UHGV virus genome: UHGV-0378502
Source of the DNA: a virus
Reading direction: 5' to 3' (one strand)
DNA: 22,376 nucleotides
Below, piece after piece: positions 5,923-12,203 of the stretch; within the stretch, counting starts at the first letter, position 1; the number at the start of each line of letters is the position of its first letter. Under the pieces are notes generated by a model. That model searched no databases, was not told the origin of the DNA, and saw only the letters and a list, made by a program, of their open reading frames with translations. The position numbers and the translations under genes are program-made.

Positions 5923-6180
5923 ATACAGCGAACGCCATTGGTTTAGTTGGATATTTACTGTGCCGGACAAAAACGGTTTGCGGGGAAATCTTAGTTAAGT
6001 AGAATGACTGCGGGTGCTTGAGGCTATCTGTCTCAGGCATGAACACCAAAAGGCAGATAGAGAAAAGCCCCAGTTAACATTACGCGTCCTGCAAGACGCT
6101 TAACATTAATCTGAGGCCATATCTATGCGACACATAGAGATTAGCCTCTTACGGACCGAAAGGTCAAGGAGAAGCAGGCT

Positions 6181-6336
6181 ATGAAGCAGCAAAAGGCGAT
6201 GTTAATCGCCCTGATCGTCATCTGTTTAACCGTCATAGTGACGGCACTGGTAACGAGGAAAGACCTCTGCGAGGTACGAATCCGAACCGGCCAGACGGAG
6301 GTCGCTGTCTTCACAGCTTACGAACCTGAGGAGTAA
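6181..6336 (+). CDS. hokD: Hok-family type I toxin (HokD/RelF-like, 51 aa)
   Basis: Product MKQQKAMLIALIVICLTVIVTALVTRKDLCEVRIRTGQTEVAVFTAYEPEE matches my recollection of HokD/RelF; long structured leader upstream and a GC hairpin plus T-run downstream, as expected for hok mRNAs. Confidence 0.85.
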   Translation: MKQQKAMLIALIVICLTVIVTALVTRKDLCEVRIRTGQTEVAVFTAYEPEE

Positions 6337-6777: not shown

Positions 6778-7836
6778 GTGCGGGTATTACTTAGACCTGT
6801 TCTGGTGCCTGAGCTTGGGCTGGTGGTCCTTAAGCCGGGCCGTGAATCCATACAGATATTTCATAATCCTCGAGTGCTGGTGGAGCCGGAACCGAAAAGC
6901 ATGTGCGGCCTGCCATCCGGAGTCGTCCCTGCCGTTCGCCAGCCGCTGGCGGAGGATAAATCATTACTGCCATTTTTCAGCAATGAGCGTGTGATTCGTG
7001 CTGCTGGCGGCGCTGGTGCACTGTCTGACTGGCTGTTGCGCCATATTAAATCCTGCCAGTGGCCACACGGTGATTATCACCACAGTGAAACCGTCATTCA
7101 CCGTTATGGTACCGGCGCAATGGTGTTGTGCTGGCACTGCGACAACCAGTTGTGTGACCAGACCTCAGAATCACTTGAGCAACTTGCTCACCAAAACTTG
7201 TCAGCATGGATGATTGACGTCATCCGTCACGCAATCAGCGGTACGCAGGAGAGGGAGTTATCGCTGGCCGAATTATCCTGGTGGGCGGTCTGCAATCAGG
7301 TGGCTGATGCGCTTCCGGAGTCTGTATTGTGTCGTTCACTGGGATTACCGGTGGAAAAAATCCGCTCCGTATACCGTGAGAGTGACATCGTACCGGGAGA
7401 ACAGACTGCCACCAGCATACTGAAGCAGCGCACAAAAAATATTGCGCTGCCACTTCACGTCCACCAGCAACAGCCCCCACTCCAGGAAAAGACGTTAGTA
7501 AGCATCGCCGTTGATCCGGAGTCTCCGGCTCAGTATCTCCAGCGCCAGAAACCACGACGGGAAGAGATGCCTGTATACACGCGCTGGGTAAAAACGCAGA
7601 AATGCATGACGTGTGGTAATCAGGCAGATGATCCGCATCACATCATTGGTCATGGACTGGGAGGGATGGGAACAAAGGCTGATGATTTGTTTGTTATTCC
7701 GCTGTGCCGTAAATGCCATAGCGAACTACACGCCGGGGTAAAAGATTTTGAAGAAAAACACGGCAGCCAGCTGTTGTTGCTGATTCGTTTTTTAATGCAC
7801 GCGAGAAATTCGGGTGTCCTGAAGTGGAAAGCATGA
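6778..7836 (+). CDS. DUF968-like prophage protein with C-terminal HNH-like zinc-finger motif (YdfU-like)
   Basis: GTG 6778 with GGAGG 5 nt upstream; C-terminal CMTCGN ... DPHHIIGHGLGG ... CRKCHSELH (CxxC ... HH ... CxxCH); stop abuts the rusA start. Family assignment from memory of Qin-prophage YdfU. Confidence 0.65.
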   Translation: MRVLLRPVLVPELGLVVLKPGRESIQIFHNPRVLVEPEPKSMCGLPSGVVPAVRQPLAEDKSLLPFFSNERVIRAAGGAGALSDWLLRHIKSCQWPHGDYHHSETVIHRYGTGAMVLCWHCDNQLCDQTSESLEQLAHQNLSAWMIDVIRHAISGTQERELSLAELSWWAVCNQVADALPESVLCRSLGLPVEKIRSVYRESDIVPGEQTATSILKQRTKNIALPLHVHQQQPPLQEKTLVSIAVDPESPAQYLQRQKPRREEMPVYTRWVKTQKCMTCGNQADDPHHIIGHGLGGMGTKADDLFVIPLCRKCHSELHAGVKDFEEKHGSQLLLLIRFLMHARNSGVLKWKA

Positions 7837-8202
7837 ATGACTGAACGCATAGAATTTGTTTTGCCTTACCCGCCAACGGTGAACACTTACTGGCGACGTC
7901 GTGGCAGCACATATTTTGTATCAAAAGCCGGTGAGCGTTATCGCCGTGATGTGGCGCTTATTGTTCGCCAGCAGCGGCTGAAATTAAACCTGTCCGGAAG
8001 GCTGGCGATAAAGATTATTGCAGAGCCACCGGATAAACGTCGTCGTGACCTGGACAATATCCTGAAAGCACCACTGGATGCGCTGACGCATGCCGGACTT
8101 CTCATAGACGACGAGCAGTTTGATGAAATCAATATTGTGCGCGGTCAGCGCGTTCCTGGGGGGCGGCTGGGCGTGAAGATTTACAAAATTGAGAGTGAGT
8201 GA
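7837..8202 (+). CDS. rusA: Holliday-junction resolvase RusA
   Basis: 121-aa product with RusA hallmarks (PPTVNTYW near the N-terminus, RRDLDN acidic catalytic region); typical nin-region position just upstream of the Q-like gene. Confidence 0.9.
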   Translation: MTERIEFVLPYPPTVNTYWRRRGSTYFVSKAGERYRRDVALIVRQQRLKLNLSGRLAIKIIAEPPDKRRRDLDNILKAPLDALTHAGLLIDDEQFDEINIVRGQRVPGGRLGVKIYKIESE

Positions 8203-8210
8203 TCGTAAAT

Positions 8211-8753
8211 ATGATATACCCGGAAATTACAGGCAAAAGCGGCGAGCATTTACGTCTAAAAACGCTGGAAGCCGTCTGGATCCAGGGGAAATTACGGATG
8301 TGGGGGCGTTGGTCGTATATAGGTGGTGGCAAACCAGGAAATATGTTCAATCAGTTGCTGGCATCCAAAAAACTGACAAAAACCGCAATCAATGAAGCCC
8401 TGCGTAGAATCAGGGAGTCAGGGATTGATAAACCAGAGCTGGAAGCATTCTTGCGAGAGATGATCGCTGGCAGACAGAAGAGCTGGTTGTCTCACTGTAC
8501 TGATGCAGAGGCGTTACGCATTGATGGGGTGATAAGTAAAGCGCTTGCACGTTATCCTGGATTGATTGATATCCTGCGGCAAAGGTACGAAGGGCGGGGG
8601 ATGAGTAAACGCAAAATGGCTGAATTGTTGAATGAGGTGCACCCGGAATGGTGTTTTAGTACATGCGAAAAGCGAATTGCTAATTGGTTGGCTGTTGCTG
8701 AATATGCGCTATACATCCCTATGCGAGAATCGTTTGCTCAAAAAATGTCTTGA
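8211..8753 (+). CDS. Putative late-gene antiterminator (Q-like)
   Basis: Positional: follows rusA and precedes a promoter-like element plus a strong intrinsic terminator and the late genes. Contains an LRMWGRWSY segment reminiscent of the WG-W motif I recall in 21-type Q proteins. Start could be GTG 8199 (overlapping the rusA stop) or ATG 8211. Confidence 0.5.
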   Translation: MIYPEITGKSGEHLRLKTLEAVWIQGKLRMWGRWSYIGGGKPGNMFNQLLASKKLTKTAINEALRRIRESGIDKPELEAFLREMIAGRQKSWLSHCTDAEALRIDGVISKALARYPGLIDILRQRYEGRGMSKRKMAELLNEVHPEWCFSTCEKRIANWLAVAEYALYIPMRESFAQKMS

Positions 8754-8778
8754 TTTTTTACGCATAAACTGTTTCAAT
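8750..8778 (+). promoter_or_regulatory. Candidate late promoter (PR'-like)
   Basis: TTGATT (8750-8755), 17-nt spacer, TTCAAT (8773-8778), located between the Q-like stop and the terminator at 8838-8861. Pattern-based prediction. Confidence 0.3.
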
Positions 8779-8837
8779 CCAGCTACGCTTCGCAAAGCTA
8801 TACCGCGAGGCGAATAGCAGACATGGACACCTGAAAG

Positions 8838-8861
8838 AACCCGCTTTATGCGGGTTTTTTT
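8838..8861 (+). terminator. Intrinsic terminator (tR'-like) downstream of the Q-like gene
   Basis: 7-bp stem AACCCGC / GCGGGTT with a 5-nt loop, followed by a T-run (8855-8861). Confidence 0.7.
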
Positions 8862-8984
8862 GTGCCCGAAAAGCGGTACAGGACGTTAAATGCGCTGGTG
8901 GTTGCGAATGCCGGTCTTTCAGCTTGCTGGCTTTTTCGACAAGAGGTATTGGTATGTCACGTTAACCGGAAAAGGGAAAAAGGC

Positions 8985-9182
8985 ATGCTAAAACAGCAGG
9001 ATATGACCGAAACCGCCAGAGTGGTGTTTAATGAATTAAGCGTCACCGAACCGGCGACCGTCGGGGAAATTGCGCAGAATACTTACCTTTCACGCGAACG
9101 CTGCCAGTTAATACTGACTCAGCTTGTTATGGCGGGTCTGGCAGATTATCAGTTCGGTTGTTACAGACGCCTTCCTCAGTGA
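8985..9182 (+). CDS. Small hypothetical protein (65 aa), possible winged-helix DNA-binding protein
   Basis: ATG 8985 (MLKQQDMTETARVVFNELSVTEPATVGEIAQNTYLSRERCQLILTQLVMAGLADYQFGCYRRLPQ); the track ORF starts further upstream at 8862 without an obvious RBS. Confidence 0.4.
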   Translation: MLKQQDMTETARVVFNELSVTEPATVGEIAQNTYLSRERCQLILTQLVMAGLADYQFGCYRRLPQ

Positions 9183-9332
9183 AGGTTTTTTAATTTGTGG
9201 TAATGGGCGGCTGGTGGGTGTTAGCGGCACCTGCCAGCCATCTGCTCATGCGTTGGGGTCACAAGCAAACCTCAGGCCCATCTGCTTTGCGCAAAAGCGG
9301 TATGAGCCTATCAGAGAAGTGCTTATTGATCT

Positions 9333-10382
9333 ATGATTAATACTGTAAAAATATCCAGTTGTGAGTTAATCAACGCTGATTGCCTGGAATTTATCCAGAC
9401 CTTACCGGAAAACTCTGTCGATCTGATAGTCACAGACCCGCCATACTTTAAAGTGAAGCCCGAGGGCTGGGATAACCAGTGGGAGGGCGACGATGATTAC
9501 CTGAAATGGCTGGACCAGTGTCTGGCGCAGTTCTGGCGGGTACTGAAGCCTGCCGGAAGTCTTTACCTGTTCTGTGGTCATCGCCTGGCATCTGACACCG
9601 AAATCATGATGCGTGAGCGCTTTAATGTGCTGAACCACATTATCTGGGCGAAGCCGTCCGGACGCTGGAACGGGTGCAATAAGGAAAGTCTGCGGGCGTA
9701 TTTTCCGGCAACAGAGCGCATTCTGTTTGCAGAACATTATCAGGGACCGTATCGCCCGAAAGATGATGGCTATGTGGCACAGGGGCGCGAGCTAAAACAG
9801 CACGTCATGGCCCCGCTGATTTCTTACTTTCGTGATGCGCGTAAATCACTGGGAATAACGTCAAAACAGATAGCGGAAGCCACCGGAAAGAAAAACATGG
9901 CTTCGCACTGGTTTGGTACCAGTCAGTGGCAGTTACCGAACGAGGGTGATTACAACAAATTGCAGGCGTTGTTTGCGCGTGTTGCGGCAGAAAAACATCA
10001 GCGCGGGGAACTGGAAAAGCCACACCACCAGCTGGTCAGCACATACAGTGAGCTGAACCGGCAGTATACGGAACTGCTGAGTGAATATAAAAATTTGCGG
10101 CGGTATTTCGGTGTGACGGCGCAGGTTCCGTACACCGATGTCTGGACGCATAAACCGGTGCAGTACTATCCAGGGAAACATCCGTGCGAAAAACCGGCAG
10201 AAATGCTGCAGCAGATAATCAACGCGAGCAGTCGTCCGGGAGACCTGGTTGCAGATTTTTTTATGGGTTCAGGTTCAACGGTAAAAGCGGCGATGGCACT
10301 GGGGCGTTGTGCGATTGGTGTTGAGCTGGAGACAGGACGTTTTGAACAGACAGTCAGGGAAGTTCAGGATTTAATCGTTTGA
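9333..10382 (+). CDS. Orphan DNA methyltransferase, beta-class amino-methyltransferase (N6-adenine or N4-cytosine)
   Basis: Motif IV DPPY (VTDPPYF) near the N-terminus and motif I FxGxG (DFFMGSGST) near the C-terminus, the circularly permuted order typical of beta-class MTases (PF01555-like). No adjacent restriction endonuclease gene. Confidence 0.85.
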   Translation: MINTVKISSCELINADCLEFIQTLPENSVDLIVTDPPYFKVKPEGWDNQWEGDDDYLKWLDQCLAQFWRVLKPAGSLYLFCGHRLASDTEIMMRERFNVLNHIIWAKPSGRWNGCNKESLRAYFPATERILFAEHYQGPYRPKDDGYVAQGRELKQHVMAPLISYFRDARKSLGITSKQIAEATGKKNMASHWFGTSQWQLPNEGDYNKLQALFARVAAEKHQRGELEKPHHQLVSTYSELNRQYTELLSEYKNLRRYFGVTAQVPYTDVWTHKPVQYYPGKHPCEKPAEMLQQIINASSRPGDLVADFFMGSGSTVKAAMALGRCAIGVELETGRFEQTVREVQDLIV

Positions 10383-10431
10383 AACGGATGAGATTGCAGA
10401 ATTAATTACGCACCATTATTATTCTGCTCCC

Positions 10432-10507
10432 GGCCCTTTAGCTCAGTGGTGAGAGCGAGCGACTCATAATCGCCAGGTCGCTGGTTCAAATCCAGCAAGG
10501 GCCACCA
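10432..10507 (+). tRNA. tRNA with CAT anticodon (Ile2/lysidine-type or Met)
   Basis: Manual cloverleaf: acceptor GGCCCTT/AAGGGCC, D-arm GCTC-AGTGGTGA-GAGC, anticodon stem AGCGA/TCGCC with loop CTCATAA, T-arm GCTGG-TTCAAAT-CCAGC, discriminator A, encoded CCA. Resembles the ileZ-type tRNA I recall from Stx-converting phages. Confidence 0.8.
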
Positions 10508-10514
10508 TCACATA

Positions 10515-10591
10515 CCGCCATTAGCTCATCGGCAGAGAGCGTCAGCTTTCGAAACTGGCTGTGTGGGGCTCGGGTCCCCGATGGCAATCCA
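10515..10591 (+). tRNA. tRNA-Arg(TCG)-like gene, possibly degenerate
   Basis: D-arm TAGCTCA ... GAGC and an anticodon loop TTTCGAA (anticodon TCG) are recognisable and a CCA is present at 10589-10591, but in my manual fold the first two acceptor pairs and one anticodon-stem pair are mismatched and the T-loop is atypical. Boundaries are approximate. Confidence 0.45.
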
Positions 10592-10604
10592 TTATCTGCA
10601 TTAT

Positions 10605-10681
10605 GCGTTGTTAGCTCAGCCGGACAGAGCAATTGCCTTCTAAGCAATCGGTCACTGGTTCGAATCCAGTACAACGCGCCA
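10605..10681 (+). tRNA. tRNA-Arg (anticodon TCT, reads AGA/AGG)
   Basis: Manual cloverleaf with perfect acceptor stem GCGTTGT/ACAACGC, D-arm GCTC ... GAGC, anticodon stem ATTGC/GCAAT with loop CTTCTAA, T-arm ACTGG-TTCGAAT-CCAGT, discriminator G, encoded CCA. Confidence 0.85.
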
Positions 10682-10695
10682 CGCTTATTTTTCCA

Positions 10696-10720
10696 GGCTC
10701 GCTTTGGCGGGCCTTTTTCA
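10696..10720 (+). terminator. Intrinsic terminator after the tRNA cluster
   Basis: GGCTCGC tttg GCGGGCC hairpin followed by TTTTT. Confidence 0.5.
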
Positions 10721-10928
10721 TATCCGCGCCCGTTATGAAGCGCCACCGCGTTCTGCTAATGCTGAAGCCCTTCGTCAGCTGACTGATGTTGCAGATACTG
10801 ATGATACTGTGAATGTGCTGTGTCTGTGTCTGGATATCGCTGACCAGGACGGTATCGGTCAGGAAGAAGAAGCGCAACTGAAGAAAATTGCGCAGGCGCT
10901 GCAGTTGCCACTGGAGCAGTACCTGTGA
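10704..10928 (+). pseudogene. Start-less 3' remnant of a TerB-like domain gene
   Basis: The frame has no ATG; the track start is a TTG inside the terminator hairpin. The C-terminal half (LDIADQDGIGQEEEAQLKKIAQALQL) fits the ADG ... E ... L pattern I associate with TerB-like domains. Confidence 0.35.
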
Positions 10929-11077
10929 AAAGTGCGCGCCTTGTGCTGGCTGTCATCCTGTTGTTTCTGGTAGTGATGGTGGATTTCACCGGACGACTGA
11001 TGTCAGTGCTGGCAGATGGTGTGCTGGTGGCGATGGCGCTGATCGTGCTCCGGCCTTTACTGCGTAAATCTGAATAA
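10925..11077 (+). CDS. Small membrane peptide (50 aa from GTG; 33 aa from first ATG)
   Basis: GTG 10925 overlaps the stop of the preceding remnant; hydrophobic product MKSARLVLAVILLFLVVMVDFTGRLMSVLADGVLVAMALIVLRPLLRKSE. May itself be a remnant. Confidence 0.35.
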   Translation: MKSARLVLAVILLFLVVMVDFTGRLMSVLADGVLVAMALIVLRPLLRKSE

Positions 11078-11165
11078 CATCACACAAAAGGCATCTGCGG
11101 GTGCCTTTGACGGGGTGTTTTTTTACGGGTCGCTGGTGGCCCTTTTTTTATTTTCAGGAGGAAGT

Positions 11166-11558
11166 ATGTCTGAACCCTTATCCGGTTCCGGCACGGCTGC
11201 GGCGCTGGGTGGCGCGACGGTATTCGGGCTGTTTACCGGGATGGATTTCGGGATTGTGTTTGGCGCGTTCGCCGGGGCGTTATTTGTGGCAACGATGCCG
11301 CAGTCACTTTCAGTCTGGCGCGTGGTGGCGCATTTTCTGGTGTCGTTTATTGTCGGCGTGCTGGGAGCGCGTGTGCTGTCAGCCTGGATTGCATCAAAAA
11401 CAGGGTATGACGGTACATCAGCAGATGCGCTTTGCGCGGTGCTGGTCTCGGTGGTGTCGGTGAAGATTCTCTCGTTCATCCACCAGCAGGATATTGCATC
11501 GCTGGTGTCCGGTGTGTTCTCCCGCCTGCGGGGTGGAGGAGGCGGCAATGTTAAGTAA
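11166..11558 (+). CDS. Putative holin (130 aa, multiple TM segments, charged C-terminus)
   Basis: ATG 11166 with AGGAGGAAG RBS; three to four predicted TM helices and a Gly-rich basic C-terminus; first gene of a lysis cassette followed by an endolysin. Not lambda S-like. Confidence 0.6.
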   Translation: MSEPLSGSGTAAALGGATVFGLFTGMDFGIVFGAFAGALFVATMPQSLSVWRVVAHFLVSFIVGVLGARVLSAWIASKTGYDGTSADALCAVLVSVVSVKILSFIHQQDIASLVSGVFSRLRGGGGGNVK

Positions 11559-11823
11559 CCTTCCCGGATTGCTGAATGTGGCGTTATGCACGGTTATCGT
11601 GCTGACGCTCTTTTTTTATCGTCGCCGTGATTCCAGACATAAACCGCTGGTGTCATGGCTGGCCTGGCTGCTGATGCTGCTGTATGCCTTTGCGCCTCTC
11701 AGCTATCTGTGTGGTCGCCCGTTAGCAACGGGCTGGCTGGAAGTGTTTTTTAACCTGCTGTTCTGCGTGCTGGTGATACGCGCACGCGGGAACGTCACAA
11801 AAATCTTTCCATTGTTGAGGTGA
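11548..11823 (+). CDS. Second lysis-cassette membrane protein (91 aa; holin/antiholin candidate)
   Basis: ATG 11548 with GGAGGAGG RBS, overlapping the end of the holin gene; three hydrophobic segments; lies directly upstream of the endolysin. Confidence 0.5.
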   Translation: MLSNLPGLLNVALCTVIVLTLFFYRRRDSRHKPLVSWLAWLLMLLYAFAPLSYLCGRPLATGWLEVFFNLLFCVLVIRARGNVTKIFPLLR

Positions 11824-11825
11824 AT

Positions 11826-12203
11826 ATGCCGGGTAAATTCAGATTCAGCCGTCGCAGTGAAAAAAATCTGGAGGGTGTCAAACCACAGCTGGTTGCTGTA
11901 GTTCGCCGTGCGCTGGAGCTGACGGAGGTTGATTTCGGTATTACGGAAGGCCTGCGCAGTAAGTATCGCCAGAAACAGCTGGTTGCGGAAGGGAAAAGCC
12001 AGACCATGAACAGCCGCCACCTGACCGGTGATGCGGTGGATGTTGTGGCCTACATCGGCAGCCAGGTGTCATGGGAGTGGCCTCTGTACGAGAAAATCGC
12101 ACAGGCATTTAAGCAGGCTGCCGCAGAGCTGGGGATCGCTATCGAATGGGGCGGGGACTGGAAAACGCTGAAAGACGGACCTCACTTTCAGCTGAAGCGA
12201 TAA
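11826..12203 (+). CDS. Endolysin, peptidase M15 family (zinc L-alanyl-D-glutamate / D-Ala-D-Ala-type endopeptidase)
   Basis: Conserved zinc-ligand motifs SRHLTGDAVD (H-x6-D) and GGDWKTLKDGPHFQL (C-terminal His); 125 aa; follows the holin genes; intrinsic terminator downstream. Confidence 0.85.
   Translation: MPGKFRFSRRSEKNLEGVKPQLVAVVRRALELTEVDFGITEGLRSKYRQKQLVAEGKSQTMNSRHLTGDAVDVVAYIGSQVSWEWPLYEKIAQAFKQAAAELGIAIEWGGDWKTLKDGPHFQLKR

What the first reader, a model, noticed from the sequence alone, without database searches (positions are those of the whole stretch)
9333..10382. Orphan beta-class DPPY DNA methyltransferase as the first long late gene
The methyltransferase has no cognate restriction gene and sits immediately downstream of the late terminator, so it would be expressed at high level late in infection. 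That position fits a role in methylating progeny DNA for anti-restriction, or in modifying host epigenetic state after induction. Target specificity cannot be read from the sequence.
Basis: partly seen in the sequence, partly recalled or inferred. Interest (0 to 1): 0.5.

Follow-up and report, generated by a model that had tools for sequence, protein, structure and literature searches.

The report
Known non-specific adenine methyltransferase (M.EcoGII family)
The gene is a real, intact DNA methyltransferase in a prophage, but it belongs to the already characterised M.EcoGII family that methylates adenines in any sequence, so it is ordinary apart from a conserved folded RNA leader just upstream that seems undescribed.

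Summary
The ORF at 9333-10382 (+) is real. It encodes a 349-aa beta-class N6/N4 DNA methyltransferase (Pfam PF01555, E=2e-44), with DPPY at residues 35-38 and FxGxG at 309-316.

It is not an unknown. It is at least 91% identical over its full length to M.EcoGII, the non-specific adenine methyltransferase of E. coli O104:H4 prophages (PMC5778455). It is 100% identical in DNA to a gene of ETEC H10407. Copies occur in 1940 of 5426 complete E. coli genomes.

The order here is: Q-like antiterminator, pR'-like promoter, strong terminator, 65-aa winged-helix ORF, second weak hairpin, about 130-nt leader, methyltransferase, three tRNAs, lysis genes. SfV, mEp460, phiP27 and Stx2 phages share this order. 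No restriction gene was found.

The late, orphan, anti-restriction reading therefore matches the published hypothesis. Three points in the finding are off:
- Specificity can be inferred, and it is non-specific.
- "Immediately downstream of the terminator" is really 466 nt.
- High-level expression is doubtful, because the gene lacks a good Shine-Dalgarno sequence and the enzyme is toxic.

By-product: the leader at 9203-9332 is a covariation-supported RNA structure. It sits once, directly before the methyltransferase start, in 56 sequences at E<=1.5e-22, and is absent from Rfam 15.

The parts
8199..8753 (+). Q-like late antiterminator gene (184 aa, DUF1133 type)
   Evidence: Pfam DUF1133 E=6e-103 plus Phage_antitermQ at 28.3 bits against a 26-bit cut-off. 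PHROG 753 'anti-termination protein Q-like', E=8e-78.
8750..8778 (+). pR'-like late promoter candidate (TTGATT, 17 nt, TTCAAT), overlapping the Q stop codon. Inferred, not shown.
   Evidence: Read from the sequence. The -35/-10 positions align with TTGATA/TCATAT and TTGACT/TAATAT in loci that carry the same Q type (L044, L046, L053). The consensus promoter scan did not list it.
8836..8866 (+). Strong intrinsic terminator (tR'-like): AACCCGC, loop, GCGGGTT, then a U7 run
   Evidence: Fold dG -19 kcal/mol, z -6.5, 0 of 200 shuffles as stable. Stem and U-run are conserved with a variable loop in phiP27, 1720a-02 and Stx2a/Stx2c phages. Homology between loci with different Q types starts here.
8985..9182 (+). 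65-aa stand-alone winged-helix protein of unknown function (PHROG 331)
   Evidence: PHROG 331 E=1.4e-37. Weak matches to TrmB, DprA_WH and MarR winged-helix families. Homologues of 37-100% identity lie directly upstream of the methyltransferase in 56 of 80 GTDB loci and in all phage loci checked. N-terminal MLKQQDMT and RCQLILTQLVMAGL are conserved.
9169..9195 (+). Second, weak terminator-like hairpin with a U-run, overlapping the stop of the small ORF
   Evidence: Listed by the terminator scan. On its own it is not more stable than shuffles here (z -0.86). A GC hairpin plus U-run occupies the same place in most related loci (columns 1-30).
9203..9332 (+). Conserved structured 5' leader RNA of the methyltransferase gene (helices P1-P5; not in Rfam)
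   Evidence: 41-sequence alignment A3 and RNAalifold. 15 pairs change on both sides against 4.1+/-1.5 in shuffles (0/500). 92.7% of cells pair, against 27-47% when partners are slid. Covariance model R1 hits once per locus, on the + strand, always ending at the methyltransferase start: 56 sequences at E<=1.5e-22 in 591 kb. No Rfam 15 match.
9333..10382 (+). M.EcoGII-family beta-class N6-adenine DNA methyltransferase, 349 aa (the finding)
   Evidence: Identical to RefSeq WP_000611206.1 of ETEC H10407.
9435..9446 (+). Catalytic motif IV, DPPY (aa 35-38)
   Evidence: Translation. Invariant in all seven aligned family members.
10257..10280 (+). AdoMet-binding motif I, FFMGSGST (aa 309-316)
   Evidence: Translation. 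Invariant in alignment A1.
10432..10681 (+). tRNA cluster of the ileZ/argN/argO type (CAT, TCG, TCT anticodons), downstream in the same transcription unit
   Evidence: ARAGORN and Rfam tRNA hits. Stx phages have the same trio after the methyltransferase.
10695..10724 (+). Intrinsic terminator after the methyltransferase-tRNA block
   Evidence: Terminator scan. Fold dG -14.6 kcal/mol, z -3.9.
11115..12203 (+). Lysis cassette (two holin-family genes and an M15 endolysin), the next late genes
   Evidence: Pfam Phage_holin_8, Phage_holin_3_7 and Peptidase_M15_4. RefSeq annotation of the H10407 copy.

Best explanation
The gene encodes a member of the M.EcoGII/M.EcoGI family: a beta-class, AdoMet-dependent N6-adenine methyltransferase that methylates adenines in essentially any sequence context.

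It sits in a lambdoid prophage of an ETEC-type E. coli as the first long gene of the Q-dependent late operon. In the lysogen no transcript should reach it. It lies behind the late terminator tR' and a second hairpin, and no sigma-70-like promoter is predicted between them and the gene. After induction, Q-modified RNA polymerase starting at pR' would read through. The enzyme would then be made while phage DNA is replicating and being packaged. A fraction of adenines in progeny genomes would become m6A. That would blunt the many Type I, II and III restriction systems that are blocked by adenine methylation in the next host.

What is shown here: family membership by sequence, intact catalytic motifs, gene order, conservation of that order, and absence of a restriction partner.

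What comes from published experiments on close relatives: non-specific activity, silence in lysogens, and toxicity.

What is inferred: late Q-dependent expression of this copy, partial methylation of virion DNA, and anti-restriction as the selected function.

The conserved structured leader and the missing Shine-Dalgarno sequence suggest that translation is held down or gated. This step is hypothetical.
For: Identity. 317/350 aligned positions (91%) match M.EcoGII, a lower bound because that sequence was machine-read from a PDF. By region: N-terminal catalytic part 95%, central target-recognition part 84%, C-terminal part 94%. The length of 349 aa equals that of M.EcoGII (PMC5778455). DPPY and FxGxG are invariant.

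Published function. PMC5778455: M.EcoGII methylates up to 99% of dA in any context, also ssDNA and RNA. It is prophage-borne, unexpressed in the lysogen and harmful when constitutive. Its authors named phage 1720a-02 as carrying a very similar enzyme, and that gene is 89% identical in protein to the window's. Reconstructed ancestors retain the activity; one of them, SUPREM/Anc284, is 71% identical to the window protein (PMC11551740). Natural homologues have been purified for use as adenine methyltransferases (PMC13540299). REBASE-based predictions list 92-93%-similar homologues as 'nonspecific', and these homologues were silent in two STEC methylomes (PMC6602927).

Context. The Q-like gene lies just upstream, followed by a strong terminator. 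No + strand promoter-like site is found in 7800-11200. tRNAs and lysis genes lie downstream. The same order is seen in the functional phages SfV, mEp460 and phiP27 and in Stx2 phages, where stx, a known pR'/Q-dependent late gene, lies downstream of the methyltransferase in the same orientation.

Spread. 1940 of 5426 complete E. coli genomes carry a copy, up to 5 per genome. Relatives of 64-91% identity occur in prophage-like contexts across Enterobacterales.

No restriction partner was found.
Against: No activity or expression data exist for this exact protein.

20 of the 33 differences from M.EcoGII fall in the central 126 residues that should contact the substrate, so altered behaviour cannot be strictly excluded.

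Anti-restriction has not, in the papers I could read, been demonstrated with phage particles of this family. [quoted passage not shown]

Heavy M.EcoGII methylation makes plasmid DNA transform 10^4-10^5-fold worse. Unrestrained methylation would therefore harm the phage itself.

m6A also sensitises DNA to methylation-dependent (Type IV, DpnI-like) nucleases.

The pR' promoter here has a poor -10 element (TTCAAT) and was not picked up by the consensus scan.
Confidence: 0.78

Rival explanations
1. It is a sequence-specific orphan methyltransferase (Dam- or CcrM-like) whose changed central domain recognises a defined motif. On this view it serves regulation of phage or host genes, or packaging, and not broad protection.
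For: The central region is the most diverged part against M.EcoGII (84% identity). NCBIfam and PDB relatives such as CcrM, M.RsrI and 8urk are sequence-specific. Some phage orphan methyltransferases do serve replication or packaging, for example P1 Dam (PMC12707154).
Against: Variants far more diverged than this one keep non-specific activity; the reconstructed ancestor SUPREM/Anc284 is 71% identical to it overall and 66% in the central part (PMC11551740). The nearest known specific enzyme, M.PflMI, is only about 27% identical to M.EcoGII. There is no insertion or deletion in the central domain relative to M.EcoGII.
Confidence: 0.05
2. It is a silent relic: an intact-looking gene in a decaying prophage that is never expressed and has no present function.
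For: M.EcoGI and M.EcoGII are not expressed in their native strain, and that prophage was called cryptic (PMC5778455). The near-identical H10407 prophage carries an IS66 insertion in its head genes. Homologues gave no methylation signal in STEC methylomes.
Against: The ORF is full length with all motifs. It is 99.8-100% conserved among the ETEC, EPEC, porcine and other isolates listed. The family, its leader and its position are maintained across many genera, and also in phages that were isolated as phages: SfV, mEp460, cdtI and phiP27. Silence in a lysogen is what a late gene should show. In this window the late genes are uninterrupted ORFs.
Confidence: 0.07
3. The enzyme is active and non-specific, but its selected role is something other than evading restriction. 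Candidates are shutting down or marking host DNA or RNA during lytic growth, RNA (m6A) modification, interference with competing phages or with host repair, or protection from phage-encoded nucleases.
For: M.EcoGII methylates ssDNA, RNA and DNA:RNA hybrids, and its over-production is harmful to cells (PMC5778455). The biological function is stated to be unknown (PMC11551740). The gene travels with a winged-helix protein of unknown role. Winged-helix domains can act as m6A sensors in other systems (abstracts of bioRxiv 10.1101/2023.06.07.544091 and PMC11037411).
Against: DNA activity exceeds RNA activity, and RNA activity varies neutrally across the family (PMC11551740). Expression late, just before lysis, gives little time for host reprogramming to matter. 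Broad protection is the simplest benefit of context-free m6A. The winged-helix ORF is missing from 23 of 79 informative loci that keep the methyltransferase, so it is not an obligatory partner.
Confidence: 0.1

Closest known systems
M.EcoGII and M.EcoGI of E. coli O104:H4 C227-11 (Murray et al. 2018, PMC5778455), sold as EcoGII methyltransferase
   Same: Same length (349 aa), same beta-class motif order, at least 91% identity over the full length. Prophage-borne and orphan. The 65-aa upstream ORF also has a homologue in O104:H4 (note on mEp460 gp52).
   Different: About 30 substitutions, two thirds of them in the central domain. The host lineage is ETEC-like, not O104:H4. This allele has not been assayed.
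Methyltransferases of phages phiP27 (L24), SfV (orf48), mEp460 (gp53), cdtI, 1720a-02 and many Stx2a/2c/2d phages
   Same: 82-90% DNA identity for those found by megablast. SfV, mEp460 and cdtI were found through the leader. Same module: terminator, 65-aa ORF, leader, methyltransferase, then tRNAs, stx or lysis genes.
   Different: Different Q alleles and morons upstream. Several have a 352-aa product with a different C-terminal tail. Stx phages carry stxAB after the tRNAs, whereas this window has none.
Phage Mu Mom with its translational activator Com
   Same: Works alike in outline: a late, lysogen-silent, host-toxic DNA-modifying enzyme giving broad protection from restriction (PMC12707154). 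From my own knowledge: mom translation is gated by a small protein acting on a structured mRNA leader. That resembles the small ORF, leader and enzyme arrangement seen here.
   Different: Mom is not an AdoMet methyltransferase and makes a different adenine adduct. No homology. The regulatory analogy is a hypothesis and was not tested.
Alpha-class promiscuous adenine methyltransferases (Hia5, Hin1523, Nma1821; Drozdz et al. 2012, as cited in PMC5778455)
   Same: Phage-associated, near context-free m6A activity.
   Different: Opposite motif order (FxGxG first, DPPY last), which is a different architecture. The window protein is beta class.
Structurally solved beta-class enzymes M.RsrI, CcrM, M1.MboII, M.HpyAVI/DpnA and 8urk/9c3u
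   Same: Shared catalytic core. They match the N-terminal (8-140) and C-terminal (270-343) parts at E=1e-13 to 1e-24.
   Different: All are sequence-specific. None aligns with residues of about 115-280, the family-specific central domain.

Membership tests
Beta-class amino (N6A/N4C) DNA methyltransferases (Pfam PF01555) | Significant match to the N6_N4_Mtase profile | tested here: met
   E=2.1e-44, 152.5 bits against a 26.7-bit cut-off, profile positions 1-219 of 221.
Beta-class amino (N6A/N4C) DNA methyltransferases (Pfam PF01555) | Motif order: catalytic (D/S)PP(Y/F) N-terminal, target-recognition region central, AdoMet-binding FxGxG C-terminal | tested here: met
   DPPY at aa 35-38 and FFMGSGST at aa 309-316. 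Two-piece alignments to M.RsrI, CcrM and M1.MboII.
M.EcoGII / M.EcoGI family | Full-length, gap-free homology to M.EcoGII including the central domain | tested here: met
   91% identity over 349 aa; the only gaps coincide with obvious PDF-reading errors. Central domain 84%.
M.EcoGII / M.EcoGI family | Located in a prophage or phage, with no adjacent restriction endonuclease | tested here: met
   Lambdoid prophage context. No nuclease of restriction type in the window. The flanks in related loci are Q, the small ORF, tRNAs or holins.
M.EcoGII / M.EcoGI family | Methylates adenine N6 in any sequence context (also ssDNA and RNA) | not testable with these tools
   Known for M.EcoGII (PMC5778455) and for reconstructed ancestors, one of which (SUPREM/Anc284) is 71% identical to this protein (PMC11551740). 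Inferred here by homology only.
M.EcoGII / M.EcoGI family | Silent in the lysogen, expressed on induction | not testable with these tools
   Consistent with the position behind tR' and a second hairpin, and with no predicted + strand promoter in 7800-11200. No expression data for this locus.
Type II restriction-modification system (methyltransferase with cognate endonuclease) | A restriction endonuclease gene next to the methyltransferase | tested here: not met
   Neighbours are a 65-aa winged-helix ORF and tRNAs. The DUF968/HNHc_6 protein at 6778-7836 is a common lambdoid nin-region gene and has no PADLOC hit.
Rfam RNA families (for the leader at 9203-9332) | Match to any curated covariance model | tested here: not met
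   No relevant hit at E<=1 over 8100-11200 or at E<=10 over 9150-9350. Only a chance-level microRNA model hit and a chance-level CRISPR-repeat model hit, the latter at 9160-9185 just outside the leader. Nothing at gathering score.

The most novel reading that the evidence does not exclude
M.EcoGII-family methyltransferase genes carry a previously undescribed cis-regulatory RNA of about 130 nt immediately 5' of the start codon. It has covariation-supported helices and a possible alternative pairing that sequesters the UGAUCU just before the AUG. It often comes with a co-conserved 65-aa winged-helix protein. Together these may act as a post-transcriptional dosage lock on a toxic, context-free DNA and RNA methylase. 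That would be a functional analogue of Mu com/mom, or a ligand- or protein-responsive switch.
Probability: 0.4. Interest if true: 0.55.

Novelty: already known. Interest (0 to 1): 0.25.

Why it matters
The methyltransferase itself adds nothing new. It is one more copy of a very common, well-characterised prophage enzyme that is already a standard reagent for chromatin footprinting and protein-DNA mapping.

The useful points are corrective. The likely specificity can be stated (any adenine). The natural role of the family (broad anti-restriction from a late, lysogen-silent gene) is still untested in phage particles.

What could matter is the by-product. This family's genes share a tightly linked structured leader RNA and often a small winged-helix protein. 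Neither is mentioned in the M.EcoGII papers I read, and the leader is not in Rfam. If they control translation, they would explain how phages use a toxic, self-damaging enzyme safely. They might also help people who express these enzymes heterologously.

Tried and rejected
1. Reading the leader as a coding upstream ORF (9203-9340, 'MGGWWVLAAPASH...', overlapping the methyltransferase start). Rejected: close relatives differ by 1-nt indels there and some loci have early stops, while paired columns covary.

2. Known RNA families for the leader. Rfam 15 gave nothing at permissive thresholds.

3. Known prophage sRNAs. The Pas sRNAs (bioRxiv 10.64898/2026.05.13.724894) and AgvB/AsxR (PMC4104026) lie elsewhere, beside structural genes or downstream of the moron. 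Neither paper mentions a methylase.

4. The leader as a free-standing element of late operons. Rejected: blastn and the covariance model find it only directly before the methyltransferase or a truncated remnant of it.

5. Finding a structure or function for the 65-aa protein by sequence. There were only weak, generic winged-helix matches (TrmB, DprA_WH, MarR, ArsR; best PDB profile hit E=0.001 to the winged-helix part of an unrelated methyltransferase). PADLOC had no hit.

6. IMG/VR loci as a source of extra diversity. The 80 returned were all at least 90% identical to the query and added nothing.

7. Two competing leader folds, A and B. Both pair well. Only P2 and P3 of fold A have strong two-sided covariation, so I could not decide whether the alternatives form a switch.

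8. A clean M.EcoGII sequence. Only a machine-read copy with evident errors was available, so 91% is a lower bound.

9. I did not use the large protein searches or structure prediction, because the answer did not depend on them.

Full report
1. The observation.

The ORF at 9333-10382 (+) is present as described: ATG to TGA, 349 codons. It matches Pfam PF01555 (N6_N4_Mtase) at E=2.1e-44 across almost the whole profile. PADLOC's Type II methyltransferase model PDLC03265 matches at E=1e-159.

DPPY lies at residues 35-38 (nt 9435-9446). FFMGSGST lies at 309-316 (nt 10257-10280). The catalytic motif therefore precedes the AdoMet motif, which is the beta-class order. Solved beta-class enzymes (M.RsrI, CcrM, M1.MboII, DpnA/HpyAVI, 8urk/9c3u) align in two pieces to the N- and C-terminal parts. 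Roughly 165 central residues have no solved homologue.

2. What it is.

The DNA is 100% identical to a gene of ETEC H10407 and other ETEC strains, and 99.9% identical to one in EPEC E2348/69. A copy occurs in 1940 of 5426 complete E. coli genomes, up to five per genome. The whole window is 99.3% identical to an H10407 prophage, where the product is WP_000611206.1, 'DNA-methyltransferase'. Phage records with 82-90% identical genes include phiP27, 1720a-02 and many Stx2a/2c/2d phages.

Murray et al. (PMC5778455) characterised M.EcoGII from an O104:H4 prophage. Their findings:
- It is 349 aa and beta class (DPPY, then TRD, then FxGxG).
- It methylates adenine in any context in dsDNA and ssDNA, up to 99% of dA, and also methylates RNA.
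- It is not expressed in the lysogen and is harmful when constitutive.
- They named phage 1720a-02 as carrying a very similar enzyme.

The M.EcoGII sequence printed in the supplement of PMC11551740 is 91% identical to the window protein over the full length. That is a lower bound, because the machine-read copy has obvious errors at three places. Identity is 95% in the N-terminal core, 84% in the central domain and 94% in the C-terminal core.

The window protein is 71% identical to the reconstructed ancestor SUPREM/Anc284. That ancestor retains non-site-specific DNA and RNA activity, as did the other four ancestors that could be purified (PMC11551740). Natural homologues have also been purified for use as adenine methyltransferases (PMC13540299). 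In STEC methylome work, 92-93%-similar homologues are listed as 'nonspecific' and were silent in culture (PMC6602927).

The gene is thus a member of a known, experimentally characterised family.

3. Context and mechanism.

Features in order along the + strand:
- DUF968/HNH and RusA genes.
- A Q-like antiterminator gene at 8199-8753 (Pfam DUF1133 plus Phage_antitermQ; PHROG 753 E=8e-78).
- A pR'-like promoter candidate, TTGATT-17-TTCAAT, at 8750-8778. Its hexamer positions are conserved in loci with the same Q type. It is weak and was not listed by the consensus scan.
- A strong intrinsic terminator at 8836-8866 (dG -19 kcal/mol, z -6.5).
- A 65-aa ORF at 8985-9182.
- A weak hairpin plus U-run at 9169-9195.
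- A leader of about 130 nt, then the methyltransferase.
- Three tRNAs at 10432-10681.
- A terminator at 10695-10724.
- Holins and endolysin at 11115-12203, then terminase, portal and head genes.

The same order is found in SfV, mEp460, phiP27 and Stx2 phages. In the Stx phages stxAB follows the tRNAs. Homology between phages with different Q alleles begins exactly at the terminator.

No + strand promoter-like site is predicted between 7800 and 11200. No restriction endonuclease was found in the window or next to the gene in related loci.

The best-supported mechanism is therefore a late, Q-dependent, lysogen-silent, context-free adenine methylase that partly methylates replicating progeny DNA and so blunts m6A-sensitive restriction in the next host. 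Timing and role are inferred, and this is also the published hypothesis (PMC5778455; PMC12707154). PMC11551740 notes that the biological function is still formally unknown.

'Immediately downstream of the late terminator' is really 466 nt, with a conserved gene and a second hairpin in between.

'High level' expression is doubtful for three reasons. The only purine-rich stretch (AGAGAAG) ends 13 nt before the ATG, and the region is embedded in conserved structure. Constitutive expression is deleterious. DNA with 80% m6dA transforms 10^4-10^5-fold less well, so over-methylation would hurt the phage.

'Host epigenetic state' has no support.

5. By-product: a conserved leader RNA and a small partner gene.

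I fetched 80 species-representative loci that encode relatives of 64-91% identity across Enterobacterales. In 56 of them a homologue of the 65-aa ORF (37-98% identity) lies directly upstream. The gap to the methyltransferase start is nearly constant: 137-154 nt in the Enterobacteriaceae-type loci (mostly 147-154) and 76-101 nt in Xenorhabdus and Photorhabdus.

The protein is PHROG 331, function unknown. It gives only weak, generic winged-helix matches.

Loci without that ORF still keep the leader. In a 41-sequence alignment (A3), RNAalifold predicts nested helices. For a five-helix model:
- 15 pairs change on both sides, against 4.1+/-1.5 in shuffles (0/500).
- 92.7% of cells pair, against 27-47% when partners are slid.
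- P2 (GGCUGGUGGGUG/CACCnnCCAGCC) is completely rewritten yet still paired in four lineages.
- The closing pair of P3 occurs as C-G in 24 sequences, A-U in 7, U-A in 6 and U-G in 3.

Frequent G-U pairs place the structure on the + strand RNA. An alternative fold pairs GGUCA with the UGAUC just before the AUG. It pairs well but has little independent covariation, so a switch is possible but unproven.

A covariance model (R1) finds the element once per locus, on the + strand, always ending at the methyltransferase start. It hit 56 sequences at E<=1.5e-22 in 591 kb. blastn finds it in 58 phage records. Every one I opened has it before the methyltransferase or before a truncated remnant.

Rfam 15 has no matching family. 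The prophage sRNA papers I checked describe other loci. A coding reading of the leader is contradicted by 1-nt indels among close relatives.

I therefore regard the leader as a real, conserved, probably cis-regulatory RNA of unknown mechanism. The analogy to Mu com/mom is my own suggestion and is untested.

6. Comparison, novelty and verdict.

The gene is a member of the M.EcoGII family by every feature testable here. Activity and expression could not be tested. It is not part of a restriction-modification pair. It differs from the alpha-class promiscuous enzymes (Hia5 group) in architecture, and from solved beta-class enzymes in its central domain.

As a finding it is already known and ordinary: an exact copy is annotated in RefSeq and the family is a commercial reagent. 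Interest is low for the methyltransferase itself. The modest extra value lies in the undescribed leader RNA and its winged-helix neighbour.

Noticed in passing
window 9203-9332 (+): A conserved structured RNA leader of about 130 nt lies directly upstream of the methyltransferase start. Helices are supported by compensatory changes. It occurs once per locus in 56 sequences at E<=1.5e-22. It is not in Rfam 15. A conserved GAUC sits just before the AUG, and there is no well-spaced Shine-Dalgarno sequence.
   Followed up: yes
window 8985-9182 (+): A 65-aa stand-alone winged-helix protein (PHROG 331, unknown function) is co-conserved upstream of the methyltransferase in 56 of 80 GTDB loci and in all phage loci checked. 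It is absent from 23 loci that keep the leader or the methyltransferase, so it is not obligatory.
   Followed up: partly
window 8750-8866 (+): The short pR'-to-tR' unit after the Q-like gene would give a transcript of about 80 nt ending at a very stable terminator, analogous to lambda 6S RNA. Rfam gives a sub-threshold isrK hit (21.6 bits, E=0.1) at 8787-8860.
   Followed up: partly
window 10432-10681 (+): tRNA trio of the ileZ/argN/argO type. ARAGORN calls the first one Met(CAT), while RefSeq calls the H10407 copy Ile. The middle Arg(TCG) scores below the Rfam tRNA threshold (26.4 against 29 bits) and is not annotated in H10407.
   Followed up: no
window 10690-11100: This is the slot where stxAB sits in Stx phages. 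Here it holds only short ORFs (RefSeq: a partial gene and a DUF3927 protein) flanked by terminator-like hairpins on both strands (10695-10714 +, 10893-10872 -). That recalls the convergent sRNA pairs described at this moron site in EHEC (PMC4104026).
   Followed up: no
window 6012-6183 (+): Rfam gathering-score hit to the sok antitoxin RNA (106.7 bits), next to the hokD-like toxin gene annotated in the H10407 copy.
   Followed up: no
L088 (phage phiSTEC1575-Stx2k) 2475-3337: The methyltransferase is truncated. Only the first 60 nt of the leader and a 714-nt C-terminal remnant (annotated as an HTH protein) remain, between the small ORF and the tRNA-stx2 block.
   Followed up: partly
L053-L085 (Xenorhabdus/Photorhabdus loci), about 100 nt before the methyltransferase start: A shorter leader variant keeps only the AAUGG-CGG-hairpin part, flanked by GGUGAA/UUCACC. 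Many of these loci have a mini-ORF, AUG GAA UAG, a few nt before a GUG start of the methyltransferase.
   Followed up: no
L052 174-2645: In one Rosenbergiella locus an 823-aa protein with an NPPY-type methyltransferase motif, possibly a Type IIG-like enzyme, occupies the slot upstream of the M.EcoGII-family gene.
   Followed up: no
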